IMG/VR virus record: IMGVR_UViG_3300043773_002546
Coordinates: 1 to 64,000 of that record
Source of the DNA: a virus
Strand: one strand, 5' to 3'
DNA length: 64,000 bases
Shown piece after piece: positions 7,408 through 59,435 of this stretch (its first letter is position 1; each line of letters begins with the position of its first letter). The position numbers and the translations under genes were made by a program. The notes below the pieces were generated by a model, which was not told the origin of the DNA, did not search any database, and was given only the letters and a program-made list of their open reading frames with translations.

Positions 7408-8029
7408 CGTTCTTCTGACGTTGTTCCTGGATCGATTTGGCATGGAGGCGCTGGAGTGGGATCCGGCCACGATCACCCTGGAGCTCGAGGAGGAGTTTGA
7501 TATCAAACTTCCCCAATTAACTCTGGACAAGCTCCTGGTGGCGATCCAGATCCTCACCACCGACAGCTTCTTCAAGTCAGCGCCCGACTTCATCGACTTT
7601 TGCAATGTCCTTTCCGGCGCCACATACCGGCCCGATATGTGGGACCCTGCGGACGCTGAAGAGGTCGCGTGGGGTCTCACCGAAGCGTTGCTGATTTCGC
7701 CGCCCGACGAAGGTGACCAAGAGCCGTTCACCGACGAAATTCGCGCCTACATCGGCTCTGTGCTTGACTCCGAGGGGCTAATCAACCCGCCGGACATTCT
7801 ACGCATAGCATTGCGGCAGGTGCGCGTCTCGCCAGCAATCGAGGACTTCTCCGACGACCCGGAAATGTTCGCCTCAATTTACGAGGTAGAGCGCGGCAAG
7901 ACCGAAGACATTAATCAGACAATTGTTACCAAGACGCAGCTCTTAGCCGCGCAACTTGCGGCGCTGGATCTGAAAAACGGTAGCGCAAAAAACGTAGCAC
8001 AAATGCTGCAGGCGTCCCTGCAGCGTTAA
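7355..8029 (+). CDS. Hypothetical acidic phage protein, possibly virion
   Basis: Globular-looking 224 aa ORF overlapping the upstream gene. Confidence 0.7.
   Translation: MPKNILQEALTSRETFASVLLTLFLDRFGMEALEWDPATITLELEEEFDIKLPQLTLDKLLVAIQILTTDSFFKSAPDFIDFCNVLSGATYRPDMWDPADAEEVAWGLTEALLISPPDEGDQEPFTDEIRAYIGSVLDSEGLINPPDILRIALRQVRVSPAIEDFSDDPEMFASIYEVERGKTEDINQTIVTKTQLLAAQLAALDLKNGSAKNVAQMLQASLQR
7493..7510. repeat. Dispersed palindrome copy (gagtttgatatcaaactt)
   Basis: Perfect 16-bp palindrome with TTGATATCAA core, inside a CDS. Confidence 0.7.
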
Positions 8030-8047
8030 GCTGCAGAAAGACAGTCA

Positions 8048-8245
8048 ATGCTTGTGCTCTCGCGTAGCCTCAATGAGGCTATTAAAATCGGCGACAACGT
8101 AACCATTACGATTGTCGAGATTCTTAAAGACCGCGTAAAGTTGGGCATTACCGCACCGCCAAACATCCGTGTTTTTCGCGCGGAGCTTTTGCGGCAGCCA
8201 CCCAAGGAGAAAAACAGCCATGGGCTGGAACGACCGAATGGGTGA
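8048..8245 (+). CDS. csrA: Carbon storage regulator CsrA homolog
   Basis: MLVLSRSLNEAIKIGDNVTITIVEILKDRVKLGITAPPNIRVFRAEL matches the CsrA consensus. Confidence 0.93.
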   Translation: MLVLSRSLNEAIKIGDNVTITIVEILKDRVKLGITAPPNIRVFRAELLRQPPKEKNSHGLERPNG

Positions 8246-10051: not shown

Positions 10052-12689
10052 GGGGCTTCCTACCTCGCTAGTTCGCCGCCATAACCACATGAACGCCCTG
10101 GCGGCATTGGGCGTGGCGCCGGAAAAACCTACGTTTCCGGCGGTGGTGGGATGTCCATTATGCCATGCTGAGACGCTATACCTGTTCGACGATCTGGGGA
10201 CCGACGGCATCTGGATGCACTGCGAAAACTGCCGTGCCCATGGAGATATCATAACCTTTGGCGCGCAAATCTGGAACACAAGCCTGGCCAGCGCTTTAAC
10301 GCGTTTTGCCGAGCTTGGCGCCATCGTCCGCAACGAGGGCGAGCGGGCTGCCGGAGAGTATTCCAGGGCGCTAAACCGCATGACAGCGGCCGAAACCTTT
10401 TGGGAAGAGACCCAAGGCCAGCTGTGGAACCACCATGATGATATTGTCGCCTGTCGGCTCCGCGAGCTGGGCCTAGATAAAGACCTAGCAGCTTGCCGCG
10501 GCCTCATTGGCGTAGCGCACCCGGACCAGATTGCCGCCTTCTGTAGCGAGATCGGGCGCGCTAGTCCCTCCCGCGCCCGTGAACACGGCCCCAGTCTCGT
10601 GTTGCCGTTCTACGACTTACCCGGCCGCATGACAGGCGCGCTGTTGGTGCAATACACAGAATCGTTTCAGTCGCGACGCACGTTCATCCCTCTGACAAAT
10701 TACAAACGCCGCAAGCCGGACGCCGGGTACTACTTTCTGCAAACAGCCCTTATGCCGGTGCCTAAAACCTTGCGCGACAGCTACTTTGTAGTAGACGACC
10801 CCTTCTGGGCGTTGAAAGCTCAAACAGCGCAACTGAAGTCCGGCGCGGGCCTTTTGCCCATAGCCGCCAGCTACCACGGCCCCGACGCCTTGAGTTACGG
10901 TAACACCTGGGCGTCTTTTCCCCATACACCGCGGTTTTTCCAGGGCGCCGTGTGCAGTCCCGAGCTTGTCTCCCAAGCCGCCGCCGCCCGGGGCTACGTC
11001 TGCGTCACGCCCCACGAGAGCATCGAGCGAGCTGCCACGCCGACGAGGACTATTCACCGCCTAGCCGAAATCCGCCGCGCTGCGCAGACCTGGCAACAGG
11101 CCCTGGAAGAGTTTTTTAGCGCCAGCAGTGAGCTAATGGCACAAGCTTTTGCTACTAAGCTGGCCGTACCACATGACAAATTGCACCTGTTCTTCAAAGC
11201 CCAAGAAAAAAAGTTCTCACCGGAATTCGCCGGACGGGTCATGGCTCGAGTAGCGGCGCCGCCGGTGGTCCCCACCAAGGTTCATCGCCGCTGGGTGGTT
11301 ATCGAGCGCGACGGCGGCTGGTGGAGTCACACTGGCACGCATGTCTGCAGCGCCCTGGTCCGCATTGAAAGAATTGTCCATGTTCGCGACGGCAACAAGT
11401 TCTACAGCGGCACAATCACGACGCCGGACGGTGAATTAACTTTCACCGACAGCGCCAAAAAGATCGAGAAGATGGGGCTACTGGCTTACGCCCAGCAGCA
11501 CGCCGCCGCGGAGGGCATTCTCCTTCGATACGATCCGGCCTGGAATGTGCGGTCGCATTTGATATCAATGACTCTTCACGAGCCTGAGCTGCTAACCGTC
11601 TCAGGAGCTCTGGGCTGGGACGACCAGTCGAGCCGTTTCTGCTTCTACGGCTACTCGCTGGCTAACGATGGCGCGGTGGTCCCCGACCCGGTGCCTGGCG
11701 TCCGCGCCAGCCGCCAAGGCGATTTTCCGCTGCCGGACATCGTAGCGCCCTTATCGCTGCGAAATCTACTGACCGTCTCCGAGGACAACGCTTTCCTGTG
11801 GGCCATGTTCGCCGCCACTGCCGCCGACCTGCTAGCGCCGGTTCTGGGCAAACCCGCGCCGATCGTGGCCTTGGATCCCGCCAGCTTCGAAGCCGCCCAA
11901 AAAATCGGCGCCGCTCTGGACTGCGGCTGGGACAAAATCCCGGCCCGTTCCTACCGGCACGTCATGGACAGCGTCGTGGCGTCGGTAAACACCGCGCCCT
12001 GGCCGGTGTTTGTGTCCCACGCCTACAACGACACCTTTTGCAGCCCGGCCGTGCCCCGTTGCATAGCCGGGCCTGGGTTCGTCCGCCTGGAACCGACCTG
12101 CGCCGCAGCCGCGCCAAGCTACGGGTGGCACCACTGTACGTTACGGCCGCCAGTACAACCGCCCGACGCCACGCCCCTGCGGTACGTCCTGCCGGTCTAC
12201 ATTCAGGCTGCCCTGCGGGGCCGGTTAACGTTTTTAACCGCTGCAGGCTCGCCCTGGCTGGCCGTCCTGGAACACCTGGCGGGGTGGCTTGATGAAACTT
12301 ACGGCGGCACGTTTAATATGGCCCTTGCCCGAAACCGGGTGATGCCGCCCAACCGCGCCCACGAGGCGTTGATGGGCGCTATCAACCAGGCCTTAGCTGG
12401 CGGGCATCTTGATATACTTCCACGACCACGCCGAAAAGATCAACCTAAAAATTACTTGCTGCGAAATAAACAGCACTGGTGGTTGAATCAACACGCCATA
12501 GATCGCTATTTTTATAGCGTCGGAAAACTCGCGCCAAATTGGCTGGCGGTCCAAGAATTACTCGAAACGAATCGCCTGTTCTGCGGAACAAACACAGTAC
12601 ACAACATGCCTGGAATTCTCGTTCATCGTGAATGGGGCGATCGTTTCTGGAGTGATTACCGGCCTGATCAGGCCAAAGACTTGGGTTAG
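10050..12689 (+). CDS. Primase-like protein with N-terminal CHC2-type zinc finger; catalytic TOPRIM motifs look degenerate
   Basis: CPLCH...WMHCENCRAHGDIITF...SLASALTRF; GAGGA SD 9 nt upstream. Confidence 0.6.
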   Translation: MGLPTSLVRRHNHMNALAALGVAPEKPTFPAVVGCPLCHAETLYLFDDLGTDGIWMHCENCRAHGDIITFGAQIWNTSLASALTRFAELGAIVRNEGERAAGEYSRALNRMTAAETFWEETQGQLWNHHDDIVACRLRELGLDKDLAACRGLIGVAHPDQIAAFCSEIGRASPSRAREHGPSLVLPFYDLPGRMTGALLVQYTESFQSRRTFIPLTNYKRRKPDAGYYFLQTALMPVPKTLRDSYFVVDDPFWALKAQTAQLKSGAGLLPIAASYHGPDALSYGNTWASFPHTPRFFQGAVCSPELVSQAAAARGYVCVTPHESIERAATPTRTIHRLAEIRRAAQTWQQALEEFFSASSELMAQAFATKLAVPHDKLHLFFKAQEKKFSPEFAGRVMARVAAPPVVPTKVHRRWVVIERDGGWWSHTGTHVCSALVRIERIVHVRDGNKFYSGTITTPDGELTFTDSAKKIEKMGLLAYAQQHAAAEGILLRYDPAWNVRSHLISMTLHEPELLTVSGALGWDDQSSRFCFYGYSLANDGAVVPDPVPGVRASRQGDFPLPDIVAPLSLRNLLTVSEDNAFLWAMFAATAADLLAPVLGKPAPIVALDPASFEAAQKIGAALDCGWDKIPARSYRHVMDSVVASVNTAPWPVFVSHAYNDTFCSPAVPRCIAGPGFVRLEPTCAAAAPSYGWHHCTLRPPVQPPDATPLRYVLPVYIQAALRGRLTFLTAAGSPWLAVLEHLAGWLDETYGGTFNMALARNRVMPPNRAHEALMGAINQALAGGHLDILPRPRRKDQPKNYLLRNKQHWWLNQHAIDRYFYSVGKLAPNWLAVQELLETNRLFCGTNTVHNMPGILVHREWGDRFWSDYRPDQAKDLG
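11555..11572. repeat. Dispersed palindrome copy (gcatttgatatcaatgac)
   Basis: TTGATATCAATGA; read as L-I-S-M in the CDS. Confidence 0.75.
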
Positions 12690-14007: not shown

Positions 14008-14327
14008 ATACTGTAACGCACGATGAGTACCAGGTCTCAGCCCGTGTAGTGCTGCGCAAAGGCGACGTTTTCCGCGCAAACGGCGGGCCGTATTACGTTA
14101 TGCAAGACGAGAACGGCAAAAGAGTAAAATCGTCTATGGCGGCCAAAGGGCCCTTTCGGTTTCGCGCCTATTGCGAGCGCGGGCGCAAGAAATGGATCGA
14201 AGCGACCAGTATCAAAGAGGGCGGGTTCGTGATACTACCGCTGACGAAGTGGCGCACGATCGATCTGACCAACTTTGTGAATCGTCCATACAAAATTCTT
14301 GGCAAGAAACGGGAGAAAAAGCGATGA
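14004..14327 (+). CDS. Hypothetical protein
   Basis: ATGA-coupled ORF. Confidence 0.65.
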   Translation: MNTVTHDEYQVSARVVLRKGDVFRANGGPYYVMQDENGKRVKSSMAAKGPFRFRAYCERGRKKWIEATSIKEGGFVILPLTKWRTIDLTNFVNRPYKILGKKREKKR

Positions 14328-14508: not shown

Positions 14509-14952
14509 ATGGAAATCTCGATCCGGCTCAAAGATATCAATGAGCTTGGCCTAATCGACGTCACGGCGATCATGACGCGGCTGTCTTGGTCAGACTCCGG
14601 CAGCGACAGCTCGATTCAGAAGGAACTCGACAAGCGTTACATCCACATCCGGCCCGGACCGCACCCCAATATGCGCCTGGCGCTGATCTGGCTGGACGAC
14701 ATTCTCGTCGGTTGGGTTGGCACCCGGCCGTGGCCTGAAAAGTTCAAAGGAAAGCCCATTACGGCGCAGACCGTGGAGTGCTTTATCGACCCCGAGTATC
14801 GCCGCCAGGGCTTCGCCCGACTCGGCCTGCAGGCGCTGATCAGTGCTGGCTTTCTCGACCGAGACAAGCCGGTGTCGGTCTACGCCCCCGAGGTTGTCGG
14901 CACGGCGCGCAGCTGCGGCTGCAAAACAGTTATTCTTTGCGAGAGCACCTAA
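14509..14952 (+). CDS. GNAT acetyltransferase
   Basis: Motif A FIDPEYRRQGFARL; GGAGG SD. Confidence 0.75.
   Translation: MEISIRLKDINELGLIDVTAIMTRLSWSDSGSDSSIQKELDKRYIHIRPGPHPNMRLALIWLDDILVGWVGTRPWPEKFKGKPITAQTVECFIDPEYRRQGFARLGLQALISAGFLDRDKPVSVYAPEVVGTARSCGCKTVILCEST
14527..14544. repeat. Dispersed palindrome copy (ctcaaagatatcaatgag)
   Basis: 16/18 match to the consensus. Confidence 0.75.
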
Positions 14953-17378: not shown

Positions 17379-17396
17379 GTCATTGATATCAAACCG
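17379..17396. repeat. Dispersed palindrome copy (gtcattgatatcaaaccg)
   Basis: Lies in the short gap between two convergent stop codons. Confidence 0.8.
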
Positions 17397-21636: not shown

Positions 21637-22422
21637 ATGCCACGCGAAAAATCACGCGCTGCAGCTGCCGTGTCCCGCGTCTGGGACGAGGACGACAGAG
21701 ACGCGGCAGACTTTTCTCCAGGGACGACCGACACCAGCACGGAAGCTGCGATTCGCTCAGCCACCGACGACCCTCAGCCAACCGAAGAACTCGGCGAGCT
21801 AATCGACGGCGGCGAGGACGAGATTACCGACGACTTTGAGGAGCGGATCAATCCGGCTCCGGTCGCCGTCGCTGTTGACGGCGTCGATCATCCCCAAGCG
21901 GCGGACCGCCTCGCGGCCGACGCTATGAAGAAAGAAGTTTCTCCCATGCCCAGCAACAAAGACATGACCAAGGCTGATCACGTTCGCGCCGAAATTGAAC
22001 GGCGGCAGAAATCCGGCGAGTCGATGAGGCCCAAAGATATCATTGAGGCGCTGGCCAAGAAGGGCGTGAAAGTCACTCCGCCCCAGGTCTCAGTGCTTGT
22101 GAAAAAGCTTGTCGGCCCGGCGTCAAAGCTTGCCCCCACCGATCAGACCCCGGCCCAGAAAGCCAAAGCGGCGATCAACCGTTTGACCCGTGCGGCTTCA
22201 GCCGTCAAGAAGCCAATCTCGGCAGCTCCGGTTGCTAAGAAACCGGTCACGGCGCCGTCGGCGGCACGGTCGGCGGGCAAGACAAAGGCAGCGCCACAAA
22301 GCAGCGACAGCGAGTACTCAACGCTGTTCGCGGCGGCTAATTTTGTGGGCGCCTGCGGCGATCTTGCCGCGGCCCGCAAAACGCTGGAAGCCTACGAACG
22401 GCTCACCGCCGCCCGCGCGTAA
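21637..22422 (+). CDS. Hypothetical protein with acidic N-terminus and Ala/Lys/Pro-rich, possibly DNA-binding, C-terminus
   Basis: Composition; ORF track. Confidence 0.65.
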   Translation: MPREKSRAAAAVSRVWDEDDRDAADFSPGTTDTSTEAAIRSATDDPQPTEELGELIDGGEDEITDDFEERINPAPVAVAVDGVDHPQAADRLAADAMKKEVSPMPSNKDMTKADHVRAEIERRQKSGESMRPKDIIEALAKKGVKVTPPQVSVLVKKLVGPASKLAPTDQTPAQKAKAAINRLTRAASAVKKPISAAPVAKKPVTAPSAARSAGKTKAAPQSSDSEYSTLFAAANFVGACGDLAAARKTLEAYERLTAARA

Positions 22423-25181: not shown

Positions 25182-25199
25182 CTCATTGATATTAAACCT
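25182..25199. repeat. Dispersed palindrome copy (ctcattgatattaaacct)
   Basis: Starts 3 nt after the AAA gene stop codon. Confidence 0.7.
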
Positions 25200-30858: not shown

Positions 30859-30876
30859 TTCATTGATATCAAATCG
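30859..30876. repeat. Dispersed palindrome copy (ttcattgatatcaaatcg)
   Basis: Starts 2 nt after a stop codon. Confidence 0.8.
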
Positions 30877-32926: not shown

Positions 32927-33182
32927 AGACGATCTCAAAGATATCAAACCCGGCAGTGAACTTTATCGCCGAGCTGCAGACACGCTGAAAGACAACCAAG
33001 ACGGCGCGGCGTATCTCGAGTACGCCCGAGACCGGCTTCATTGCGACGGCGAGTTGGAATTTGATGACGACGCCACAGTTAGCCTGGGCGCGGATGAAGG
33101 CGCTTACGTCATGGCCTGGGTGTGGGTGTCCGACGATACCATGCGCGCCGAAGGGTACCTAGAGAAAGAAGAAGATGTTTGA
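32898..33182 (+). CDS. Hypothetical protein
   Basis: GELEFDDDATVS..EGAYVMAWVWV. Confidence 0.65.
   Translation: MPAARVRLTEDDLKDIKPGSELYRRAADTLKDNQDGAAYLEYARDRLHCDGELEFDDDATVSLGADEGAYVMAWVWVSDDTMRAEGYLEKEEDV
32934..32951. repeat. Dispersed palindrome variant (ctcaaagatatcaaaccc)
   Basis: Combines half-sites seen at 14527 and 40444. Confidence 0.55.
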
Positions 33183-35969: not shown

Positions 35970-36431
35970 ATGACCGCCAAACTTGCCTACCTAATGCGGC
36001 ACGACAACGAATTCGATCCCGAGCACATGCGCGAGATCATCTATGACCTGTTTGCGGGCTCATTCGAGAGCGACTGCGGCAGCACCGACGAGATCATCGA
36101 CACGCTGTGCATGGCGATCTTCAAATACCGCTGCGCCACGGAAGACGACCTCGACGTTGACCGGGTGTTTATCTCCGACAAGAAACTGGCCGAGTGCTAC
36201 TTCTGCGACAACGTTGAAAAAATCCTTGTTGCGCACGGTTTTGACAAGGAAAACGCCGCAGAGTACGCCTCTTGGCCTGAGACCCTTCCGGTTGATGCAA
36301 CCTGGGAAAAAGAAGCCCTGCGCGAGCTGGCGCTAATTCAGGCTGGTCACGACCTAGTAGTCCGCGACCAACTCAAGCAGCTCTGGGCCGAAGAGAAAGC
36401 CAAAAAGGAGGCCGCCGAAAAGGTGGTTTGA
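35970..36431 (+). CDS. Hypothetical protein
   Basis: ORF track. Confidence 0.65.
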   Translation: MTAKLAYLMRHDNEFDPEHMREIIYDLFAGSFESDCGSTDEIIDTLCMAIFKYRCATEDDLDVDRVFISDKKLAECYFCDNVEKILVAHGFDKENAAEYASWPETLPVDATWEKEALRELALIQAGHDLVVRDQLKQLWAEEKAKKEAAEKVV

Positions 36432-36441
36432 TATCAATGGA
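36424..36441. repeat. Dispersed palindrome copy (tggtttgatatcaatgga)
   Basis: Spans a stop (TGA 36429) and the next start (ATG 36437). Confidence 0.8.
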
Positions 36442-37383: not shown

Positions 37384-38319
37384 ATGATTTTGCTCACTGG
37401 GGCCGCGGGCTTTATTGGCTCAAACGTGCTCCAAGCCCTGAACGACCAGGGCCGAGACGATATCATCTGTGTAGATGACCTGACCAACGGCGCCAAGTGC
37501 CGCAACCTAGTCGGAAAAAAATTCTGGCGGTACGTTGACCGTCGCGCCGTGTTTGGCTTAGACCGCGCGCTGTTTAGTGAAATCATCCATTTAGGCGCCA
37601 ATGTCGACACAACTTGCACTGACGGTCGCGCAATGGTTCGCGACAACTACGACGTCTCGTTTGAGCTCTACAAGCATTTTGTACTCGACAATCCCGAGTG
37701 CACATTTGTTTACGCCTCAACCGCCGGAGTCTACGGCTTAAACGACAAAACGGCCGCGGCGGGTTTCCGCGAAACGCCCGAATGCGAGGATCCGCACTCG
37801 CCGTATGCGTTCAGCAAGTGGCTGTTTGACAGCTACATGCGCATTGAATTAGGCGCGCTGCATACCATGTCGATCACGGGCCTGAGATTCTTTAACGTCT
37901 ACGGCCCCGGCGAGCAGCACAAAAAACGCATGCGCTCGGCTATCGGCAACATGATCAATGATATCAATGAGGGCAGACGGCCCGTGCTTTTTGACGGTAG
38001 CGAATGGATCATGCGAGATTTCGTCTGGGTCGGCGACGCGGTCAATACCGTGCTCTGGGCCTTAGACAGCCGCCCGCGTGGGATCTTCAACGTCGGTAGT
38101 GGGGTAGCCAGATCCTTCCTAGACGCCTACAACGCTGTAGCCGACGCCGCCGCGTACGACGGTCACCCTCAGTACGTAGACTTCCCTAAAGACTTGCGTC
38201 ACTATCAGTGTTTTACGCAAGCTGATCTGACTAATCTGCGCGCCGCTGGTTTTACCCATAAGTTTGCGACGCTTGAAGAAGGCGTAAAACAGTACGTTGC
38301 GCAGTATCACAGGAGTTAA
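37384..38319 (+). CDS. hldD: ADP-L-glycero-D-manno-heptose 6-epimerase
   Basis: LTGAAGFIGSNVLQALNDQGRDDIICVDDL, YASTAGVYG, YAFSK, GLRFFNVYGPGEQHK..M, RDFVWV.D. Confidence 0.9.
   Translation: MILLTGAAGFIGSNVLQALNDQGRDDIICVDDLTNGAKCRNLVGKKFWRYVDRRAVFGLDRALFSEIIHLGANVDTTCTDGRAMVRDNYDVSFELYKHFVLDNPECTFVYASTAGVYGLNDKTAAAGFRETPECEDPHSPYAFSKWLFDSYMRIELGALHTMSITGLRFFNVYGPGEQHKKRMRSAIGNMINDINEGRRPVLFDGSEWIMRDFVWVGDAVNTVLWALDSRPRGIFNVGSGVARSFLDAYNAVADAAAYDGHPQYVDFPKDLRHYQCFTQADLTNLRAAGFTHKFATLEEGVKQYVAQYHRS
37954..37971. repeat. Dispersed palindrome copy (atcaatgatatcaatgag)
   Basis: 16/18 match; inside hldD. Confidence 0.75.
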
Positions 38320-40443: not shown

Positions 40444-40461
40444 CTCATTGATATCAAACCG
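40444..40461. repeat. Dispersed palindrome copy (ctcattgatatcaaaccg)
   Basis: Ends 7 nt before the probable ATG at 40469. Confidence 0.8.
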
Positions 40462-41688: not shown

Positions 41689-41964
41689 ATGAGCAAGGAC
41701 GCAGCTTTCCGCGAACGAATCTCGGATCTCATTGATATCAATCCGGACGCCCTATTGGCGGACGGCCTCGAGGATGCCTACATCGGGCACACGGTCAATC
41801 ACCACTACAATCACGTGGCGGTGTACGACTACGAGAAGTGCATCAATATTCTGGTCGAGCGCGACGGCATGGACTACGACGGCGCCGACGAGTTTTTGCA
41901 GTTCAACACCTTGGGCGCCTACGTCGGCCCCGACGGTCCGTTGTTTATTTGGAGCGCGTCATGA
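41689..41964 (+). CDS. Conserved phage hypothetical protein
   Basis: LLADGLEDAYIG...VAVYDYEKCI..L...EFLQFNTLGAYVG. Confidence 0.7.
   Translation: MSKDAAFRERISDLIDINPDALLADGLEDAYIGHTVNHHYNHVAVYDYEKCINILVERDGMDYDGADEFLQFNTLGAYVGPDGPLFIWSAS
41728..41745. repeat. Dispersed palindrome copy (ctcattgatatcaatccg)
   Basis: CTCATTGATATCAAT; inside a CDS. Confidence 0.8.
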
Positions 41965-46326: not shown

Positions 46327-47296
46327 ACGAAACCGCTGGACCATCTCTCGCGTCAGCGGGCGGTGGGCGCATCGGTTTGCGATTTTCTACGTGATCATGG
46401 TGGCGGCGACAAAGAAGCGCGCTTGTTTTGCCACGGATCACGCTACGGTTGTGCGAAAGATTTATCAGGTGCGGTACTTGTGGTTTAAACGGGCCAAGGA
46501 GCTCATGGCTACCGGCCTGTGGCAGCCAGGCCACGGCATCACGCGGTCGTCGGCGGACTACACCGCTCGGCGCTGCCTGTTTTGCCGCCCGAGCTGCGTG
46601 TTTTACGCCCACGGCAACTCGAACAAGCTCCGGCCGTGTAAACAGTCCCGCATCTGCCCGTTCTGTTACGCCCGCACCGTGGCCTACATCTACTGGAACG
46701 TGCGGCAGTACCTGAACACTCGGCGCAAGCAGGCCGACAACGAGATCGTGACCTGCGTGGTCCAGAAAGAGTACCTGGCCGCAAAGGGCTTTACGCCCGA
46801 GACTGGCATGGTCGCTGGCATGCACAGCCCCAACGTCCGGCGGTTGCGGGCGGTTATTGAGAAACACGTGCAACGTTATGAGCGACAGGCCAAGACTATT
46901 CAGCGCCGCACCGATGGAGCCATGTGGTCGGTGATCGTCGAGCCCAAACGTCGCGGCTGGCGCATCGAGACTCGGCAGTACTTCGTGGCCCGCGCTGGCA
47001 CCAAGTTGCCGGTTGTGCGGCTCGTAGACGCCAAGACGGTCTACACCAAATCCGCAAAAATCCAAACTTTTGTGCGGTCCGGCAAGATCTTGGGTCGTTT
47101 CGTCCGCTATCCGGCGGGCATGTTGACGGCCTACGCGGATCTGGCCGGAATTGCCATGCAGGCTACCTACGGGCTGCGCTTGCGCCGCGGCACGGGTCGA
47201 TTTCGCACCTGCGGTAGCGGGCTGGCCGCGGCCTTCAAGCAAGCGAGCAAGAAAAATGAGCGAACGAAAACCCAAGAAAACGCCCAAGCGTCTTAA
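46304..47296 (+). CDS. Zn-binding protein resembling a degenerate rolling-circle Rep
   Basis: RCLFC...CKQSRICPFCYAR; C-terminal TYGLRLRRGTGRFR; no intact HUH. Confidence 0.45.
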   Translation: MQWVERYKRNRWTISRVSGRWAHRFAIFYVIMVAATKKRACFATDHATVVRKIYQVRYLWFKRAKELMATGLWQPGHGITRSSADYTARRCLFCRPSCVFYAHGNSNKLRPCKQSRICPFCYARTVAYIYWNVRQYLNTRRKQADNEIVTCVVQKEYLAAKGFTPETGMVAGMHSPNVRRLRAVIEKHVQRYERQAKTIQRRTDGAMWSVIVEPKRRGWRIETRQYFVARAGTKLPVVRLVDAKTVYTKSAKIQTFVRSGKILGRFVRYPAGMLTAYADLAGIAMQATYGLRLRRGTGRFRTCGSGLAAAFKQASKKNERTKTQENAQAS

Positions 47297-48386
47297 GACG
47301 TCTTGCGCGATCAGGCAGCGGCTGCAGTTTGTTTTGCAGACGGTGTACAACGGCAAAATTACGTACTTCGCCAAGGCCGCTGGGATGGGCACCCAGCTGA
47401 CACACTTTTCCGAGGTTGTGCGCGGCGCCAAAACGCCCACGCCTAGGTTTATCGCCACGGTTGTCAATCAAGCGGGCATTAACGCCGAGTTTCTGCTCTG
47501 CGGCACCGGGCCGGTCATGGGCACCTCGCGGCTCGAGTACGCAGCCGAGAACCCGGCGCCAAACCTGGAACAGCTCTGGCCCCGCTTTGACACGACCACG
47601 ATGCAGTTCACGGCGAATGACGCCCGGTCGTGCCCGGAAACACAGCCAGGCGAACCGACCGAGCTTGCGTTGGCGCGCAAGATCCACGCGACTCGCGGAG
47701 CAGGCAAGCCAGTGATCGTGTATCTGACCGAGGCGTATGCGATGGCGGGCGCCTGTTCGCCGCTCGCGGAGATGCTGCGTAAACGGTACGTTACCGCCGT
47801 GGCTATGACGGGCGGCGCCGCCTACCGCGACGTTGAACTGGCCCGCTTTGCCGGTTGCGCGCTTAATCCGGCGTTCCCGCACGCGCTCATTGATATCAAT
47901 GAGGCGACTATCCTGGCCGCCAGCAGCGGCATCGGCTACGGCGAAGCCCTGGGACGTTGGTGCTACCCGCGACCCGAGACCCGCTGTACGAGCGTGATTG
48001 CCACTGCTTACGAGATTGGCTGCCCGGTGACCGTGCACACCACAATCGGCGAGAGCCCTAACCACTGGTTTCCCGTTTCACGCGCAGCGCAACTGGGCGC
48101 GGCAATCGGCGCGGCGACCTACACGGACATGCTTGTGCTGACTGAATATTTTAAGCGCTGTAGCGGGTCGCCTGGCGGCGTGTTTATTTCCAGCGACATT
48201 GCTGGGCTGGAGCTGTACCGGTACGCCGTGGCGGCTACGCAGCAAGACGCGCTTGCGCCGCGCGTCGAGGACGTGCAAACCCACTTATTGATTGGCGGGG
48301 AGTTCCGGCTCACCTTTCCCGCGTTATTGACTTCCTGTGACGCCGTATACGACGGAAGTGCAGACGATGGCAGACGCCACAAATGA
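47256..48386 (+). CDS. XRE-type HTH fused to a deoxyhypusine-synthase-like domain
   Basis: N-terminal FAKAAGM...GINAEFLLCGTG; C-terminal VTAVAMTGGAAYRDVE, GIGYGEALGR, SVIATAYEIGCPVTVHTTIG. Confidence 0.6.
   Translation: MSERKPKKTPKRLKTSCAIRQRLQFVLQTVYNGKITYFAKAAGMGTQLTHFSEVVRGAKTPTPRFIATVVNQAGINAEFLLCGTGPVMGTSRLEYAAENPAPNLEQLWPRFDTTTMQFTANDARSCPETQPGEPTELALARKIHATRGAGKPVIVYLTEAYAMAGACSPLAEMLRKRYVTAVAMTGGAAYRDVELARFAGCALNPAFPHALIDINEATILAASSGIGYGEALGRWCYPRPETRCTSVIATAYEIGCPVTVHTTIGESPNHWFPVSRAAQLGAAIGAATYTDMLVLTEYFKRCSGSPGGVFISSDIAGLELYRYAVAATQQDALAPRVEDVQTHLLIGGEFRLTFPALLTSCDAVYDGSADDGRRHK
47886..47903. repeat. Perfect 18-bp palindrome CTCATTGATATCAATGAG
   Basis: The only perfect copy found; inside the HTH fusion gene. 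Confidence 0.9.
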
Positions 48387-55245: not shown

Positions 55246-56424
55246 GTGGAACCGTTGTTTGTATTTACCGCTGATTTGCATCTAGAGGACGGGGCTTGGT
55301 CGACCCGGCCCGGTATTTACGGCGACGCGTATTACAGCTTCGCCCAAATTATTGACTACTGCATCGAGCAGCAGCTGCCGTTGATCATGGGCGGCGACGT
55401 GCTCGAGAAAAAGAGCAACTCCGCGCGGCCAATCGCCAAGCTCTGCGAGGGCCTGTCCCGTATGCAGGCGGCGGGCGTGCCGGTGTACTACATCCAGGGC
55501 AACCACGAGTATGACCGAAATGCTCCCTGGCTTTCGGTTCACCCTTGGTCACAGCACATCCATCAACAGACCGTGGAGATCCAGGGCCACTCGATTTACG
55601 GGCTCGACTGGCTGCCCAAAGGCGAGATCCAGGAGGCTTTCAAGGCGATTCCCAGGGGCACGCACATTCTCGTCACACATCAGGTTTGGGAAGATCTCAT
55701 GAAGGGCGTGGGGCGGACCGAGTGCGCTATCGCCGACGTGCACAACACGCGCACGATTCTGGCGGGCGACTTTCACGTCACAACCACAATCGAGGGCGTC
55801 AACGCGGACGGCTTGCGCACAGAGATGCTTTCGCCTGGGTCGATTTGTATGCAGGACCTGGGCGAGAGTCCGGCAAAATGGTTTTTTGTGATCTGCCGCC
55901 ATCCCGAGGGCGGTTTTCATTTCGAACGCAAAACGCTCCAGACTCGATCGTTCGCCAAATTTGTGGTGAACGACCAGGAGTATCTCGACCAGCTTTGCGC
56001 TGGCGGTCTGGTCCAAGAGATCGAGTGCCTTGCCAAGCAAATTTCTACGGAAGCCAAAACCGCGGGCGTCGACAAGCCAATCGTACGAATCAAGTTTGAC
56101 AAGAACCTGCCCGACGCGTTTTTGCGGTTAACCACCGCGGCAGGCGACGCCTGCCACTTGTTCTGTGAGGCGCTGGCGGAACGCGGCCAAGCCGAGCGGC
56201 AGCAGACAACACGCAGCAGCGCTAAAAACGATCTTTTGGCGGCGCTAGCCGACTTGCTGGGCGATGAAACCCCGGCGTACAAATTAGCGGCCGCGTTGGT
56301 AACGGCCGAAGACCCGGCAAAAAAACTCGAAGGCGTTTTTGCAGAATTTCAAGAAGGGACAAGTCATGCAGTTGTTACGTTTGGAAGTCCGGAACTGGGT
56401 ACACCATCGACACCGGGTGTGTGA
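55246..56424 (+). CDS. sbcD: SbcD/Mre11-like metallophosphoesterase nuclease
   Basis: FTADLH, MGGDV, YIQGNHE, THQ, AGDFH, SPGS. Confidence 0.85.
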   Translation: MEPLFVFTADLHLEDGAWSTRPGIYGDAYYSFAQIIDYCIEQQLPLIMGGDVLEKKSNSARPIAKLCEGLSRMQAAGVPVYYIQGNHEYDRNAPWLSVHPWSQHIHQQTVEIQGHSIYGLDWLPKGEIQEAFKAIPRGTHILVTHQVWEDLMKGVGRTECAIADVHNTRTILAGDFHVTTTIEGVNADGLRTEMLSPGSICMQDLGESPAKWFFVICRHPEGGFHFERKTLQTRSFAKFVVNDQEYLDQLCAGGLVQEIECLAKQISTEAKTAGVDKPIVRIKFDKNLPDAFLRLTTAAGDACHLFCEALAERGQAERQQTTRSSAKNDLLAALADLLGDETPAYKLAAALVTAEDPAKKLEGVFAEFQEGTSHAVVTFGSPELGTPSTPGV

Positions 56425-58519
56425 ATTCACGCGCGGGTTGGTTGCCATTCTGGGCGAGAACGGCTCCGGCAAGAGCAGTCTCTTCGGCGCGCTGAAGTGG
56501 CTCCTGACCGGCGAGAACCCTAACTACGGCAGCAAGACTGACAACATCAGTCAGTACGCCAAAGAAGGCGAGCCGTCTTTCGCCAGCCTGGAGTTCGAAC
56601 ACTCCGGGCACATTGCCGTAGTGACCCGCCATCTTCTTCCTGAGAAGGAGCAAGCCACGCTTACCATTGACGGCGTGGAAGCAGGCCGGGGCGAGAAAGG
56701 CGTCACTGCCGGAATCGAAAAGCTCTTAGGCGTGGACGCCAAGTTTATCTCGCGTTTTATTATTGTCGGTCAAACGGAGATTTTCTCGTTTATCGACGAC
56801 AATCAGACCGACACAGATAAATTCTTCCAGCGGTTGTTTAACACCGCCAAGGCCGACAAGTGCCAGGACGTGATCGGCAAGAACATTTCCAAGATCCAGA
56901 TCCCCGAGGTGCTCAAGACTCCGGCGCAGCTGGACACGGAAATCCAGACTGCCAAGGACGCGCTGTCCGAAACGGACCGGCAGATTCACGGCTTGCCCGA
57001 CATGGCCGCCTTCCTGGCTGAGCAGAAAGAGCAGCAGAAGACGATTCAGGCCTGGCGGAACCGCGAAAAGGCCGCCGCTGAGCTGGCCAAGCTTGACGCC
57101 CAGCTCCAGACGGCCAACGCCCAATTAGAAACCGCAAAGGAAGACTCCGACCGCTACGAGTCAGACTTGGAGGCGCTCGAGGAGGCATCCCAGGGCCAAG
57201 AGGAGGCGATCACCGCCGCCCGCACGGCGCTGGGCCACTGGCAGAGCTACAAGAGCGTTGCCAAGTCGCGGGAGCAGCTTCAGACCACGCGTCAGGCGAT
57301 AGCCGCCTCGCGAGCCAAAGACCCCGAGCCGGAGAAGCCGGGAGCGCTTTCGGCGGAGGAACTAGCCAAGGACGCCCACAGCCGCCGTGAACGCATTAAA
57401 GAGATCAACGCGTTTATCCGTATGTTCGACGAGCATGGCGAGGCGGAGTGCCCGACCTGCCACACGCCGTCGAGCCAGCTGGCCGATCAGGTCGAGAAGC
57501 GCAAGGCGGAGCTGCTTGTCCGGCAGCAGGAAGAAACAGAACTGACCCTTGCGTACAGCGCGCAGTGGAAACTAGAAGAAGCCTGGAAACGTTGGGAGAG
57601 TCGCGAACGCGATCGGGCGCTTTCTGAACAGAAACTCGCCGCCGCCGAACAAAGCCTGCAAGACGTCCAGCCGCCGGTCTTGAGCGAAGCCGACCTGTCG
57701 CAGACGGTCACCGATTATGACTCGTTCCAGAAGGCCAAGCAGGACATCCTGCCGCTGGCGCAGGCGGCCAAGGTCCGCAATGCCCAGCTGGAGGGCGCGC
57801 TCGTGAGCCTGGCCGAACGGCGGAAGCAACTGCTCAATGATATCAATGAGGCAGAGGTTACCGAGGCCGACGCCACGCTGGCGCAGCAGCGGCTCAACCA
57901 TGTCCAAGAGCAATTTGCCCAGCGTACGAAGCTCGACACAGCTCGCGCTACGCTTGTGCATGCCCGCGACGCCCTTCAGGCCCAACGGGACGCCGCCGAG
58001 GCCGAAGTGACCTTGGCGGGTAGACTCAGGGAATGGACGCACGTCGCTGAAACAGCCCGCGAGGCCCTCAAGAATGCTCCGCGGCTGGTTGCTCAACGCA
58101 ACCTGCAACGGCTAGAAACAAGTATTAACGAACTGTTGCAGATTTTTCAGGTGAACTTCCAGGTGCGGGTTGCCGAGCGCGACACGCCTACGTTTATTGC
58201 GGAGTTCTACGATGGTCGCCGACAAGTTGCCCAGCGACTCTCCATCGGACAAAAAACTGTCTTGGCACTTGCGTTTCGAGTCGCCGTCAACGCCATGTTC
58301 GCCGAAGAAATCGGACTCTTGGCGCTGGATGAGCCAACTGCATCGCTGGATCAGCCGCGTATTCGGGCGCTAGCCCCGGTCCTGGAAAAGCTTCGAGAGC
58401 TTTCCACGGCTAAAGGGCTGCAATGTCTGCTTGTGACGCACGCGACGACCTTGTCGCACCTCTTTGAATCCGCTATTGAACTTGAACCCCCAGAGTTGCG
58501 TCATGCAAGCAGTAACTGA
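56366..58519 (+). CDS. sbcC: SbcC/Rad50-like ATPase
   Basis: GENGSGKSS, Q-loop, coiled coil with CPTC zinc hook, LSIGQK signature, LALDEPT, LVTH. Confidence 0.9.
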   Translation: MQLLRLEVRNWVHHRHRVCEFTRGLVAILGENGSGKSSLFGALKWLLTGENPNYGSKTDNISQYAKEGEPSFASLEFEHSGHIAVVTRHLLPEKEQATLTIDGVEAGRGEKGVTAGIEKLLGVDAKFISRFIIVGQTEIFSFIDDNQTDTDKFFQRLFNTAKADKCQDVIGKNISKIQIPEVLKTPAQLDTEIQTAKDALSETDRQIHGLPDMAAFLAEQKEQQKTIQAWRNREKAAAELAKLDAQLQTANAQLETAKEDSDRYESDLEALEEASQGQEEAITAARTALGHWQSYKSVAKSREQLQTTRQAIAASRAKDPEPEKPGALSAEELAKDAHSRRERIKEINAFIRMFDEHGEAECPTCHTPSSQLADQVEKRKAELLVRQQEETELTLAYSAQWKLEEAWKRWESRERDRALSEQKLAAAEQSLQDVQPPVLSEADLSQTVTDYDSFQKAKQDILPLAQAAKVRNAQLEGALVSLAERRKQLLNDINEAEVTEADATLAQQRLNHVQEQFAQRTKLDTARATLVHARDALQAQRDAAEAEVTLAGRLREWTHVAETAREALKNAPRLVAQRNLQRLETSINELLQIFQVNFQVRVAERDTPTFIAEFYDGRRQVAQRLSIGQKTVLALAFRVAVNAMFAEEIGLLALDEPTASLDQPRIRALAPVLEKLRELSTAKGLQCLLVTHATTLSHLFESAIELEPPELRHASSN
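57833..57850. repeat. Dispersed palindrome copy (ctcaatgatatcaatgag)
   Basis: 17/18 match; inside sbcC. Confidence 0.8.
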
Positions 58520-59435
58520 TGAAGTCGCCCTAAAACTCCATACCGACGCCAATGGCCATGTGTGGTACGTCCTTGGTATTGGGGGCGTGCACAACACGGG
58601 CATGATCGCCGACACGTTTTTGATGCAGCCTGTGATTCACGGCTTTGGCATTAGAGCGCGCCTTTTGGGCACGCCTAGAAACGCCGAGCTGATTACGCAG
58701 CTCTACCTGCGACGGCGTAAAAACGAAGTAGTGTCTGTTGAGGTGGCCGGACCAAATATCTGCGAGTCGCCTGCTGAGCTCAACGACCCCGCGCTGGTGC
58801 TTTTGCGCATGCGCAGCGCGCAGCTGTCTAGTGCCTGTGGCGGCTGGCACACGGTCACCGACAAGGATTATTTGACCTATGCTTTGCTGGCGCGGATGCA
58901 GCGCACGCATTTTCAGTTTGATACAGCCACTCAGGCGTACCTGCGGGCGCACCCAGTGTTCCACGCGATGACGCTCATTCCGACTTTGTCGAGTGAGCGA
59001 TTGGCGCAACTGCTCATTGATATCATTGACCCCCGCTGGTACGTAGATCGCCGGGCGCCGGAACGGGCCAGCAAGTTGGAGCTGTACTTGGGTTTAACAC
59101 CTCGTGCCCAGGCCAGTGTCTCTAATTCCGATCGTCTGATCACTCGTCCTCGGGAGTTGCGTTGCGCTACTGTGCTCGGAACCTGGAAGACTGCGGGCTA
59201 CCACGATGTTGACACGCAGGACCCCCGAAACTGGCTGTATCGCGTTTATGCGGCAGCCGGAGGCGGCCCACGTGGCGACCTGCGTGCGGGCCAGGCGCTT
59301 GTTCGCTATCTTCGGTACAACTGGCTGGACGCCCTGGAACGCCGCCCCGGTGTGCGTGACGGGTTGTTCGCGCCGGAGCTGTATTTCCGCACACCGGCTG
59401 AGATCGAAGTTTACCGCGAACACATGAAGAGCTGA
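58503..59435 (+). CDS. Protein with a Nop/IS110 C-terminal-like domain, no recognisable DEDD nuclease
   Basis: AHPVFHAMTLIPTLSSERLAQLLIDIIDPRWY...SKLELYLGLTP; C-terminal DLRAGQALVRYLRYNW. Confidence 0.55.
   Translation: MQAVTDEVALKLHTDANGHVWYVLGIGGVHNTGMIADTFLMQPVIHGFGIRARLLGTPRNAELITQLYLRRRKNEVVSVEVAGPNICESPAELNDPALVLLRMRSAQLSSACGGWHTVTDKDYLTYALLARMQRTHFQFDTATQAYLRAHPVFHAMTLIPTLSSERLAQLLIDIIDPRWYVDRRAPERASKLELYLGLTPRAQASVSNSDRLITRPRELRCATVLGTWKTAGYHDVDTQDPRNWLYRVYAAAGGGPRGDLRAGQALVRYLRYNWLDALERRPGVRDGLFAPELYFRTPAEIEVYREHMKS
59013..59030. repeat. Dispersed palindrome copy (ctcattgatatcattgac)
   Basis: 16/18 match. Confidence 0.75.

What the first reader, a model, noticed from the sequence alone, without database searches (positions are those of the whole stretch)
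7493..59030. Dispersed AT-rich palindrome CTCATTGATATCAATGAG repeated across the window: candidate parS/matS-like genome-organising site system
Seen by eye: 14 good copies (7493, 11555, 14527, 17379, 25182, 30859, 32934, 36424, 37954, 40444, 41728, 47886, 57833, 59013) and weaker ones at 3149 and 22030. TGATATCA occurs 11 times and TTGATATCAA 8 times; a simple 60% GC model predicts about 0.4 and 0.015. Nine copies lie inside unrelated genes, in two reading frames (LIDIN/LKDIN/FDIK and HLISM), and use AT-ending codons in GC3-rich genes such as sbcC. That points to selection at the DNA level. Established: parS, matS, SlmA and Noc sites are dispersed palindromes bound by dimers and tolerated in coding DNA. 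Inference: a phage protein binds every few kb to partition, condense, protect or process the genome. In-window candidates are the two ParB-like proteins (flanked by copies at 37954 and 40444) and the HTH fusion whose gene holds the only perfect copy.
Basis: partly seen in the sequence, partly recalled or inferred. Interest (0 to 1): 0.88.

Follow-up and report, generated by a model that had tools for sequence, protein, structure and literature searches.

The report
Evenly spaced palindrome array in phage
A roughly 197-kb uncultured phage writes one AT-rich DNA palindrome about every 5 kb along its genome, even inside genes by using rare codons. Its close relatives keep the same evenly spaced array with altered flanks, so these are most likely docking sites for a paired DNA-binding protein that is not a ParB.

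Summary
All 16 listed copies exist. TGATATCA occurs 11 times in the window (0.28 expected) and 31 times in the 197-kb genome. The wider motif S-WWW-GATATC-WWW-S occurs 40 times.

Inside genes it is about 10 times commoner than in synonymous-codon shuffles. That result repeats in two relatives.

Spacing is more even than random in three genomes.

Relatives keep the GATATC core but change the flanks: TGATATCA here, AGATATCT in G002 and G006. Sites between genes mostly keep their place. Sites inside genes turn over, often through synonymous changes alone.

Sites between genes tend to sit right after stop codons. Three of them sit just upstream of a promoter-like motif (CTAAAT-N16-GCATAT) found across the phage family.

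The ParB reading fails. No ParB_N or ParA domain was found, and the two "ParB-like" genes are missing from a complete motif-dense relative.

The best candidate binder, still weak, is the gene holding the window's perfect copy. It encodes a 434-repressor-like HTH fused to a deoxyhypusine-synthase-like domain.

The closest known case is the 17-bp dyad repeat of Cluster O mycobacteriophages, whose function is unknown.

This scan has noted similar dispersed palindrome arrays in other phage genomes before. This one has no ParB.

The parts
3149..3166 (.). site GACAATGATATCTTTGAG, inside the GT9 heptosyltransferase-like gene 1847-3925
   Evidence: Kept at the same codon in G002 and G006.
7493..7510 (.). 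site GAGTTTGATATCAAACTT, inside a gene (EFDIKL)
   Evidence: G002 and G006 encode EFDV(D/E)L with GC-rich codons and have no site.
11555..11572 (.). site GCATTTGATATCAATGAC, inside a gene, second frame (HLISM)
14527..14544 (.). site CTCAAAGATATCAATGAG at the start of, or just upstream of, the GNAT gene
   Evidence: Kept in place in G002, G006 and two of the three further contigs L141, L142 and L145.
17379..17396 (.). site GTCATTGATATCAAACCG in the 35-nt gap between convergent genes (17013-17375 on +, terminase large subunit 17411-19342 on -)
   Evidence: The same spacer holds a site in G002 and G006.
22030..22047 (.). weaker site CCCAAAGATATCATTGAG inside 21637-22422 (Lys/Ala/Pro-rich tail protein)
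25182..25199 (.). site CTCATTGATATTAAACCT (GATATT variant). The 18-mer starts 2 nt after the stop of AAA ATPase gene 23689-25179.
   Evidence: G002 and G006 have a site at the same spot with their own flanks.
30859..30876 (.). site TTCATTGATATCAAATCG, starting 1 nt after the stop of 30285-30857
   Evidence: G002 has a site at the same spot, and G006 has one in the corresponding interval.
32934..32951 (.). site CTCAAAGATATCAAACCC, codon 14 of 32898-33182
   Evidence: Kept at the same codon in G002.
36424..36441 (.). site TGGTTTGATATCAATGGA. Its TGA is the stop of 35970-36431, and its ATG is a possible start of the next gene.
37954..37971 (.). site ATCAATGATATCAATGAG inside NAD-dependent epimerase gene 37384-38319
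40444..40461 (.). site CTCATTGATATCAAACCG, second frame of ORF 40211-41242
41728..41745 (.). site CTCATTGATATCAATCCG, codon 15 of 41689-41964 (LIDINP)
   Evidence: The G006 orthologue reads LREAHP and has no site.
47886..47903 (.). perfect 18-bp palindrome CTCATTGATATCAATGAG inside the HTH-fusion gene (ALIDINEA)
   Evidence: G018 and loci L148 and L157 have a site at or near the same position in the orthologous gene.
57833..57850 (.). site CTCAATGATATCAATGAG inside the SbcC/Rad50-like gene 56339-58519
59013..59030 (.). site CTCATTGATATCATTGAC inside 58464-59435
47256..48386 (+). best (weak) candidate binder: N-terminal 434-repressor/XRE-like HTH (about residues 14-82) fused to a deoxyhypusine-synthase-like Rossmann domain
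   Evidence: AF2 model, pLDDT 84. Foldseek hits to DHS, E 1.6e-5. Marginal match to 434 repressor, E 0.19. HTH_3 at E 0.001 in homologue P0050. The family is present in every relative searched that carries the motif above chance and covers the region, and absent from 12 distant genomes with at most 4 copies.
5545..5572 (+). promoter-like motif CTAAAT-N16-GCATAT. This copy has no palindrome; three of the other four in the genome have the palindrome just upstream.

Best explanation
The copies form a genome-wide array of two-fold symmetric docking sites, consensus S-WWW-GATATC-WWW-S, here g-CTCAWTGATATCAWWS. The binder is most likely a phage-encoded protein that binds as a dimer or higher oligomer, one subunit per half-site. 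Selection keeps roughly one site every 4-5 kb. Where a spacer between genes is available, the site sits there, usually right against the upstream stop codon. Elsewhere it is written into a gene with AT-rich codons at peptides such as x-(I/K/F)-D-I-(N/K/F). The most likely effect is on transcription. A bound protein could act as a roadblock or insulator at gene ends and at convergent junctions, and as a modulator at about -45 of some CTAAAT-N16-GCATAT promoters. The binder is not identified. The best candidate is the 434-repressor-like HTH fused to a deoxyhypusine-synthase-like domain (47256-48386). Shown: the enrichment, codon recoding, even spacing, positional conservation and flank change in relatives. 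Inferred: protein binding, the transcriptional effect and the identity of the binder.
For: - Enrichment over dinucleotide shuffles and over synonymous-codon shuffles in three genomes.
- The two halves assort independently in G000 (P = 0.26). Hybrid sites such as CTCATTGATATCAAACCG cannot form a useful hairpin.
- In relatives the core stays fixed while the base at -4 flips: T 69/80 in G000, A 94/104 in G006, A 48/60 in G002. This also happens at sites kept in the same place, e.g. 25182 and 125657. That is the pattern expected when a trans-acting reader shifts its preference.
- The same peptide LKDIK carries a site in G000 and G002 but is encoded CTGAAGGACATCAAGCAG in G006.
- Sites between genes are kept in place far more often than sites inside genes: 7/9 against 4/18 in G006, and 6/6 against 5/14 in G002.
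- Sites between genes lie within 7 nt of a gene 3' end 16 times against 6.1 expected. One occupies half of a 35-nt gap between convergent genes.
- Three of five CTAAAT-N16-GCATAT motifs in G000, and 5 of 11 in G018, have GATATC 7-30 nt upstream, against about 0.02 expected per motif.
- The palindrome is among the most enriched words in the DNA between genes.
Against: - No binding data exist, and the binder is unknown.
- About 60% of sites are inside genes and most are not near any recognisable promoter. No element lies at a fixed distance downstream.
- Site density is uniform across early and structural modules in G002, and spacing is more even than random. This fits an architectural role at least as well as gene-by-gene regulation.
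- Motif-dense G006 has no palindrome upstream of its five promoter-like motifs.
- Canonical hairpin terminators exist, e.g. 28755-28788, so roadblock termination is not needed everywhere.
- The candidate's HTH recognition helix differs almost completely between G000 and G006 although the GATATC core is unchanged. The gene is also present in motif-poor G015 and G016.
- No integrase was found, so a classical prophage immunity role is unlikely.
- My gene calls are a rough GC3-based script and are wrong at 109.6-113.1 kb.
Confidence: 0.5

Rival explanations
1. The array organises the genome rather than regulating genes. An oligomeric, bridging or spreading protein that is not a ParB uses evenly spaced sites to loop, condense, mark or protect the phage chromosome.
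For: Spacing is under-dispersed in all three dense genomes: CV 0.66, 0.58 and 0.60, with P = 0.003, 0.0006 and < 0.0002. Sites inside genes turn over (4/18 kept in G006) while density and regularity are kept. Density is similar in all modules of G002. The candidate binder has a domain whose solved relatives (deoxyhypusine synthase) are tetramers by established knowledge, so it could bridge two sites (inference).
Against: Sites between genes are strongly conserved in position and sit at gene ends and next to promoter-like motifs. A pure spacing rule does not predict this. The low-density relative G018 shows random spacing (CV 1.05). There is no evidence of a bridging protein.
Confidence: 0.22
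2. This is a ParB/KorB-type system. The ParB-like proteins 38322-38687 and 38727-40049 bind the palindromes as parS or OB-like sites to partition or silence the genome.
For: There is a weak PHROG match of 38727-40049 to 'ParB-like partition protein' (E 0.002). The genes lie between copies at 37954 and 40444. Earlier notes from this scan propose partner-less ParB proteins as binders of similar arrays in other phages (leads only).
Against: ParB_N is not found at E <= 1 in G000 or in G006, G012, G002, G018 and G035. No Pfam family was found for either protein at E <= 0.01. No ParA was found. Both genes are absent from complete, motif-dense G006, while 38727 has a homologue in motif-poor G015 and 38322 in G016 and G018.
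Confidence: 0.04
3. The sites are read by a host protein, such as a nucleoid-associated protein or global regulator, that the phage recruits. Flank differences between relatives would then reflect different hosts.
For: Relatives differ in restriction-site avoidance: GCCGGC has 0 copies in G000 but is 2.7-3.3 times over expectation in G015, G016 and G018. This points to different hosts. No phage binder has been identified.
Against: The exact 18-mer is not multi-copy in any GC-rich genome among 185,579 species; hits are mostly AT-rich Anaerococcus. No known host-factor consensus that I recalled (IHF, FNR, Fur) fits the spacing. The host is unknown, so the degenerate motif could not be scanned in it.
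Confidence: 0.1
4. RNA polymerase reads the motif directly as a promoter, terminator or pause signal of the phage's own polymerase. Alternatively it acts as a hairpin in RNA or as a cruciform in DNA.
For: It is among the most enriched words in the DNA between genes. It sits next to gene ends. There is a mild excess of left-right symmetry in the outer flanks of G002 (P = 0.009).
Against: Two-fold symmetry out to 14-18 bp is not expected of a promoter, and most genes lie on one strand. The halves assort independently in G000, and hybrid sites would leave only a 3-bp stem. Distances to the next start codon vary from 15 to 180 nt. A separate promoter-like motif exists.
Confidence: 0.08
5. The GATATC core is a target for DNA methylation, modification or restriction.
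For: The core is the EcoRV site. GATATC is the most over-represented 6-bp palindrome in the genome (75 against 29.5).
Against: No D12-class or N6_N4 methyltransferase was found. The excess of GATATC is fully accounted for by the 40 extended sites. A modification target would not need conserved 14-18 bp flanks or even spacing.
Confidence: 0.03

Closest known systems
17-bp dyad repeat TGTTCGG-N3-CCGAACA of Cluster O mycobacteriophages (Corndog and relatives; PMC4351075, PMC6439249)
   Same: A two-fold symmetric word occurs 30 or more times across the phage genome. Copies are split between short spacers, gene starts and gene interiors. Most positions are shared among relatives, with losses by single, sometimes synonymous, changes. 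It is absent from the host. The authors infer a dimeric binder, doubt simple promoter control, and leave the function unknown.
   Different: The phage family is unrelated (about 70-kb siphoviruses against about 200-kb phages with their own RNA polymerase). The word is different: GC-rich arms with a 3-bp spacer against an AT-rich contiguous palindrome. The paper reports no even spacing, no lineage-specific flank switch and no gene-end bias.
Stoperators of Cluster A mycobacteriophages, bound by the L5 gp71-type immunity repressor (PMC9283540, PMC6550527)
   Same: Dozens of binding sites for one phage regulator are distributed across the whole genome. The repressor also terminates transcription elongation at these sites (PMC9283540 abstract).
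   Different: The solved repressor is monomeric and recognises an asymmetric sequence (PMC9283540 title). Here the sites are palindromic, about 60% are inside genes, and no integrase was found.
Phage 434 / XRE-type repressor and its 14-bp palindromic operators
   Same: The candidate binder's N-terminal domain aligns best, though marginally (E 0.19), with the 434 repressor DNA-binding domain. From my own knowledge, 434 operators are 14-bp palindromes with an AT-rich centre read by a dimer.
   Different: 434 has six operators at two promoters, not 40 across the genome. The candidate here carries a deoxyhypusine-synthase-like domain in place of the 434 C-terminal domain. Binding is untested.
KorB and its 12 OB operators on plasmid RK2; the dispersed SopB centromere sites of phage-plasmid N15 (own knowledge; 10.1101/862136 for N15 SopB)
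   Same: Palindromic sites for one protein are scattered over a whole mobile genome.
   Different: Both binders are ParB-family proteins with ParA partners. Neither domain is found here.

Membership tests
ParABS partition system (parS) | A ParB protein with the N-terminal ParB_N (CTPase) domain | tested here: not met
   PF02195 has no match at E <= 1 in G000 or in G006, G012, G002, G018 and G035. The control search rings in 11 of 14 reference genomes. The only hint is a PHROG match at E 0.002 for 38727-40049.
ParABS partition system (parS) | A partner ParA-type ATPase | tested here: not met
   PF13614 (AAA_31) has no match at E <= 1 in G000.
ParABS partition system (parS) | The binder gene co-occurs with its sites in relatives | tested here: not met
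   38322-38687 and 38727-40049 have no homologue in complete, motif-dense G006. Homologues occur in motif-poor G015 and G016.
KorB/OB-type operator network | A ParB-family regulator binding dispersed palindromic operators | tested here: not met
   Dispersed palindromes are present, but no ParB-family protein was found.
matS/MatP, SlmA-SBS, Noc-NBS (host chromosome organisers) | Sites bound by the named host protein and confined to a chromosome macrodomain | not testable with these tools
   The host is unknown. Noc is a ParB paralogue and no ParB_N is present. The sites cover the whole phage genome rather than one domain.
Stoperator network (Cluster A mycobacteriophages) | An asymmetric site read by a monomeric repressor, oriented with transcription | tested here: not met
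   The sites are two-fold symmetric over 14-18 bp.
Stoperator network (Cluster A mycobacteriophages) | Many copies across the genome that block transcription elongation | tested here: inconclusive
   There are many copies, with a bias to gene ends (16 against 6.1 expected) and one in a convergent gap. No transcription data are available.
Stoperator network (Cluster A mycobacteriophages) | A temperate phage with an immunity repressor and integrase | tested here: not met
   PF00589 has no match at E <= 1. Serine integrases were not searched.
Cluster O-type dispersed dyad repeat (a phenomenon, not a homologous family) | A dyad-symmetric word, 30 or more copies, spread through the genome both between and inside genes | tested here: met
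   There are 40 copies in 197 kb, 13-16 of them between genes and the rest inside genes.
Cluster O-type dispersed dyad repeat (a phenomenon, not a homologous family) | The same sequence motif, or related phages | tested here: not met
   The motif differs: TGTTCGG-N3-CCGAACA against WWWGATATCWWW. No nucleotide match to any of 50,697 phage records at megablast level.
XRE/434-type repressor-operator pair | An HTH_3-type DNA-binding domain in the proposed binder | tested here: inconclusive
   No Pfam hit for the G000 protein itself. HTH_3 at E 0.001, below the curated cut-off, in homologue P0050. 434 repressor at E 0.19. The AF2 model shows a confident helical bundle at residues 14-82.
XRE/434-type repressor-operator pair | The protein binds the palindrome | not testable with these tools
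   This needs EMSA, DAP-seq or a pull-down.

The most novel reading that the evidence does not exclude
A family of about 200-kb phages with their own RNA polymerase keeps a self-renewing, evenly spaced array of sites, one every 4-5 kb. Selection acts on density and spacing rather than on position. The sites would be read by a non-ParB oligomer, possibly the HTH fused to a deoxyhypusine-synthase-like domain, that loops, insulates or marks the whole phage chromosome.
Probability: 0.2. Interest if true: 0.75.

Novelty: new variant of a known kind. Interest (0 to 1): 0.55.

Why it matters
Dispersed palindromes across phage genomes have been reported since 2015 (Cluster O), and no function has been assigned. 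This scan keeps finding them in unrelated phages, which suggests a general feature of phage genome biology that is not yet understood.

This case adds measurable properties that any mechanism must explain:
- Sites are written into genes by synonymous recoding.
- Spacing is more even than random in three genomes.
- Spacer sites are stable while sites inside genes turn over.
- Sites favour the first bases after stop codons.
- Flank preference switches in concert between sister lineages.

It also shows that such an array can exist without any ParB-type protein. It supplies natural paired test material for identifying the binder: T-type against A-type sites, and motif-dense against motif-poor relatives.

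Tried and rejected
- **ParB/ParA:** searched and not found.
- **Integrase and DNA methyltransferases:** tyrosine integrase, D12 and N6_N4 methyltransferases not found.
- **Hairpin or cruciform reading:** the halves assort independently in G000.
- **Known host-factor consensuses recalled from memory:** IHF WATCAANNNNTTR, FNR TTGAT-N4-ATCAA and the Fur box do not fit the spacing or the flanks. This rests on memory only.
- **The 107-aa basic protein 14004-14327 as binder:** It is paired with a DEDD exonuclease. It occurs only in motif-dense contigs (G000, G002, G006, G012, G040-42). It is 77-85% identical across T-type and A-type genomes. It models as a weak SH3/Tudor/BAH-like barrel (pLDDT 66, Z about 6). 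It was weakened because motif-dense G035 has the neighbouring gene but not this one.
- **Presence/absence comparison:** about 37 genes are shared by G000 and G006 but absent from G015 and G016. Many are sugar-pathway genes, so the comparison is not specific.
- **Other palindromes or spaced dyads:** none stands out in motif-poor G015. G016 has only a small set, CAGCAA-N4-TTGCTG, 6 copies.
- **Distant relative G004 (26% GC):** no comparable array.
- **Literature search by the motif sequence:** only unrelated hits.
- **Megablast of 12 kb against phage records:** no match.
- **Exact 18-mer in viral contigs:** only AT-richer, unrelated contigs.
- **ESM Atlas for the 107-aa protein:** nothing informative.
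- **The look-up of encoding contigs was closed.** The contigs of the closest HTH homologues (P0002-P0005, 75-85% identical) could not be fetched, so I could not test whether they carry T-type sites.
- **Nucleotide-level mapping of sites to G002:** mostly failed at gene borders and was replaced by protein-anchored mapping.

Full report
**What the window is.** The window is bases 1-64,000 of a 197,309-bp virus record (59% GC, one contig, estimated 96% complete). Nearly all genes lie on the + strand. The window holds a GT9 heptosyltransferase-like gene, a terminase large subunit on the minus strand, an AAA ATPase, an HldE-like sugar kinase/cytidylyltransferase, SbcD- and SbcC-like genes and a helicase. 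No phage record matches at megablast level.

**The observation.**
- TGATATCA occurs 11 times in the window, against 0.28 in dinucleotide shuffles.
- TTGATATCAA occurs 8 times, against 0.03.
- The 18-mer with up to 3 mismatches occurs 7 times, against 0.02.
- Genome-wide there are 31 TGATATCA and 40 WWGATATCWW, plus three one-base variants of the core. That is one site per 4.9 kb along the whole genome.
- The position matrix gives g-C-T-C-A-W-T-G-A-T-A-T-C-A-W-W-S-N-S.
- GATATC is the most over-represented 6-bp palindrome (75 against 29.5). The 40 extended sites account for the excess.

**Chance and coding.** I shuffled synonymous codons within each called gene, which keeps every protein and its codon usage. 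WWGATATCWW inside genes is 27 observed against 2.65 +/- 1.5, with a maximum of 7 in 300 shuffles. The same test gives 34 against 2.7 in relative G006 and 21 against 1.6 in G002. Copies inside genes use two frames. The third frame is impossible because ATTGAT then reads TGA. My gene calls come from a simple GC3-based script and are rough. One region, 109.6-113.1 kb, was miscalled; it is really a repeat-rich + strand gene.

**Protein site or hairpin.** Half-sites come in variants, CTCATTGAT and CGGTTTGAT, that combine as A|A', A|B' and B|B'. In G000 the left and right halves are no more alike than randomly re-paired halves (P = 0.26). Hybrid sites would give only a 3-bp stem. This favours two independently read half-sites, that is, a dimer. 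G002 shows a mild excess of outer symmetry (P = 0.009), which I cannot explain.

**Relatives.** Using the AAA ATPase and the most conserved structural protein as probes, I found a family of about 60 contigs, many around 200 kb and several with direct terminal repeats.
They carry their own palindrome on the same core: C-AAAGATATCTTT-G or ATAGATATCTAT. G002 has 30 sites in 119 kb, G006 has 52 in 204 kb and G001 has 8 in 22 kb.
- *Flank preference by lineage.* The base next to GAT is T in 69 of 80 half-sites in G000. It is A in 94 of 104 in G006 and in 48 of 60 in G002.
- *Survey across the family.* A search for WWWGATATCWWW (about 0.2 expected per genome; the reversed-pattern control gave about 0) found 49, 40, 40 and 23 copies in the dense lineages. 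Sister lineages have 8-21 copies and others 1-4. Eleven of the 12 more distant genomes have 0 copies; the twelfth, G023, has 4 copies against 4 for the control.
- *No replacement motif.* Motif-poor G015 and G016 have no substitute palindrome or spaced dyad of comparable size.

**Positional conservation.** G002 and G006 are syntenic with G000.
- Mapping through protein alignments, 5 of 14 sites inside genes are at the same codon in G002 and 4 of 18 in G006.
- At the other positions the relative often encodes the same or a similar peptide with GC-rich codons. Examples are LKDIK as CTCAAAGATATCAAACCG against CTGAAGGACATCAAGCAG, and EFDIKL against EFDVEL.
- By contrast, 6 of 6 sites between genes have a G002 site in the same spacer, and 7 of 9 have a G006 site there. 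Several are at the very same spot by the stop codon, but with the relative's flanks: 25182 CTCATTGATATTAAACCT against TTGAAAGATATCTTTGCG, and 125657 CGGTTTGATATCAAATCG against CGCAAAGATATCTTTGAG within an alignable stretch.

Flanks that switch together at conserved positions are what a changed trans-acting reader would produce.

**Placement.**
- Spacing is more even than random in all three dense genomes: CV 0.66 (P = 0.003), 0.58 (P = 0.0006) and 0.60 (P < 0.0002). It is random in low-density G018, with CV 1.05.
- Sites between genes favour gene 3' ends. Sixteen lie within 7 nt of a stop codon or overlap it, against 6.1 expected if each site were placed uniformly in its own spacer. These three genomes share ancestry, so the counts are not fully independent.
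- The motif's own TGA serves as the stop codon at 36424, 87940 and 108423.
- The site at 17379 fills half of the 35-nt gap between a + strand gene and the 3' end of the terminase gene.
- Distances to the next start codon vary from 15 to 180 nt, and no second element lies at a fixed distance.
- Ordinary hairpin terminators also exist, for example at 28755-28788.

**A promoter link for a subset.** While looking at sequence downstream of the sites I found a promoter-like motif, CTAAAT-N16-GCATAT (fuller form g-CTAAAT..cAAAA..ccGGGCATATt).
- It has 5 copies in G000 (5545, 80919, 95802, 102993, 164002) and 35 copies across six family genomes, including the motif-poor ones.
- In G000, three of the five have the palindrome just upstream, with its centre 9, 9 and 30 nt before CTAAAT.
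- In G018, five of eleven have TTTAGATATCA 7 or 12 nt before it. About 0.02 is expected per motif.
- In G006, none of five do.

So in some lineages the site sits where an activator, repressor or UP-like element would sit. This covers only a minority of sites.

**Who binds?**
Both genes are absent from complete, motif-dense G006 yet present in motif-poor relatives. The only hint is a PHROG match at E 0.002.
- *The HTH fusion 47256-48386: the best remaining candidate.*
  - Structure: the AlphaFold model (pLDDT 84) has a confident helical bundle at residues 14-82 followed by a Rossmann domain. The Rossmann domain matches deoxyhypusine synthases and the ArgZ C-terminal domain (Foldseek E 1.6e-5).
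  - DNA-binding domain: the N-terminal part aligns best with the phage 434 repressor DNA-binding domain, but only marginally (E 0.19). A homologue reaches HTH_3 at E 0.001, below the curated cut-off.
  - Distribution: the family is present in every relative searched that carries the motif above chance and covers the region. It is absent from the 12 distant genomes, which have at most 4 copies. That amounts to one clade, hence one evolutionary event.
  - Site in the gene: G018 and two other loci carry a site at or near the same IDIN codons inside the gene.
  - Against it: the recognition helix is almost entirely different between G000 and G006 although the core is unchanged. Motif-poor G015 and G016 also have the gene.
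- *The 107-aa basic protein 14004-14327.* It tracked the dense contigs and is 77-85% conserved. Dense G035 has the neighbouring gene without it, and its fold match is weak.

I therefore leave the binder unidentified.

**Other readings.**
- No D12 or N6_N4 methyltransferase was found.
- No tyrosine integrase was found, so the phage is probably not a classical temperate phage.
- The exact 18-mer is not multi-copy in any GC-rich bacterial genome of 185,579 species; hits are mostly AT-rich Anaerococcus. A host factor reading a degenerate motif cannot be excluded, because the host is unknown.

**Comparison with what is known.**
- *Cluster O mycobacteriophages.* This is the nearest described phenomenon. 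A 17-bp dyad repeat occurs 34 times in Corndog, with 14 copies between genes, about 10 near gene starts and about 10 inside genes. Positions are mostly shared among relatives and some losses are synonymous changes. The authors infer a dimeric binder, think promoter control unlikely and leave the function open (PMC4351075).
- *Cluster A stoperators.* These are the best-understood genome-wide site array. Their repressor also terminates transcription elongation at the sites, but the solved repressor is monomeric and reads an asymmetric sequence (PMC9283540 title and abstract; PMC6550527 listed). That the phages are temperate is from my own knowledge.
- *KorB/OB and N15 SopB sites.* They work through ParB-family proteins, which are absent here.
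- *This scan.* It has flagged similar dispersed palindromes in several other phage genomes, some attributed to ParB-like proteins. In the present family no ParB_N domain was found in the six genomes searched.

**Verdict.** The feature is real, selected at the DNA level, conserved as a system across a phage family, and not a parS/ParB system. It is most likely an array of docking sites for a phage-encoded dimeric or oligomeric DNA-binding protein. I put transcriptional roadblock or promoter modulation slightly ahead of a purely architectural role. Both fit parts of the data, and neither is shown.

Noticed in passing
window 5545-5572; also genome 80919, 95802, 102993, 164002: A promoter-like motif, CTAAAT-N16-GCATAT (g-CTAAAT..cAAAA..ccGGGCATATt), is conserved across the family. 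It has 35 copies in six genomes, including motif-poor ones. It may be a promoter class of the phage's own transcription machinery.
   Followed up: partly
whole genome G000: GCCGGC (134 expected), ATGCAT and ACTAGT have zero copies, which looks like restriction avoidance. Relatives G015, G016 and G018 have GCCGGC at 2.7-3.3 times expectation, suggesting different hosts or defences.
   Followed up: no
L030:14001-14073, 17568-17640, 17987-18335; L031:10904-10977; L032:2281-2354: The phage encodes tRNA-Lys(UUU), tRNA-Glu(UUC), tRNA-Met, tRNA-Asn(GUU) and a tmRNA (tag GAYAPALAA). These tRNAs read A-rich codons such as AAA, GAA and AAT, some of which the motif forces into genes. The site at 114871 lies 15 nt upstream of tRNA-Met.
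   Followed up: no
window 13477-14327: A translationally coupled pair, a DEDD 3'-5' exonuclease (Rv2179c-like) plus a 107-aa very basic beta-barrel protein, is found only in the motif-dense lineage.
   Followed up: partly
window 1847-3925, 37384-38319, 49431-50951: A GT9 heptosyltransferase-like gene, an NAD-dependent epimerase and an HldE-like kinase/cytidylyltransferase together look like an ADP-heptose pathway carried by the phage.
   Followed up: no
genome 109,600-113,100 (outside the window): A long + strand gene is built of repeats (NTASG.YS.V.GG type), like an adhesin or fibre. It accounts for the enriched GGCGG-N11-CCGCC and TACAGCGCC words.
   Followed up: no
window 21637-22422: This protein has a Lys/Ala/Pro-rich tail resembling histone H1-like or AlgP-like nucleoid proteins. 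It contains the weak site at 22030 and is partly conserved in all relatives.
   Followed up: no
relatives G016 and G006: Other small dyad sets were seen: CAGCAA-N4-TTGCTG (6 copies, 0.02 expected) in G016 and GGTACC-N9-GGTACC (7 copies) in G006.
   Followed up: no
loci L166-L244 (genome contigs): The exact 18-mer recurs many times in AT-rich Anaerococcus genomes, often near contig ends. It is probably part of an unrelated repeat or insertion element.
   Followed up: no
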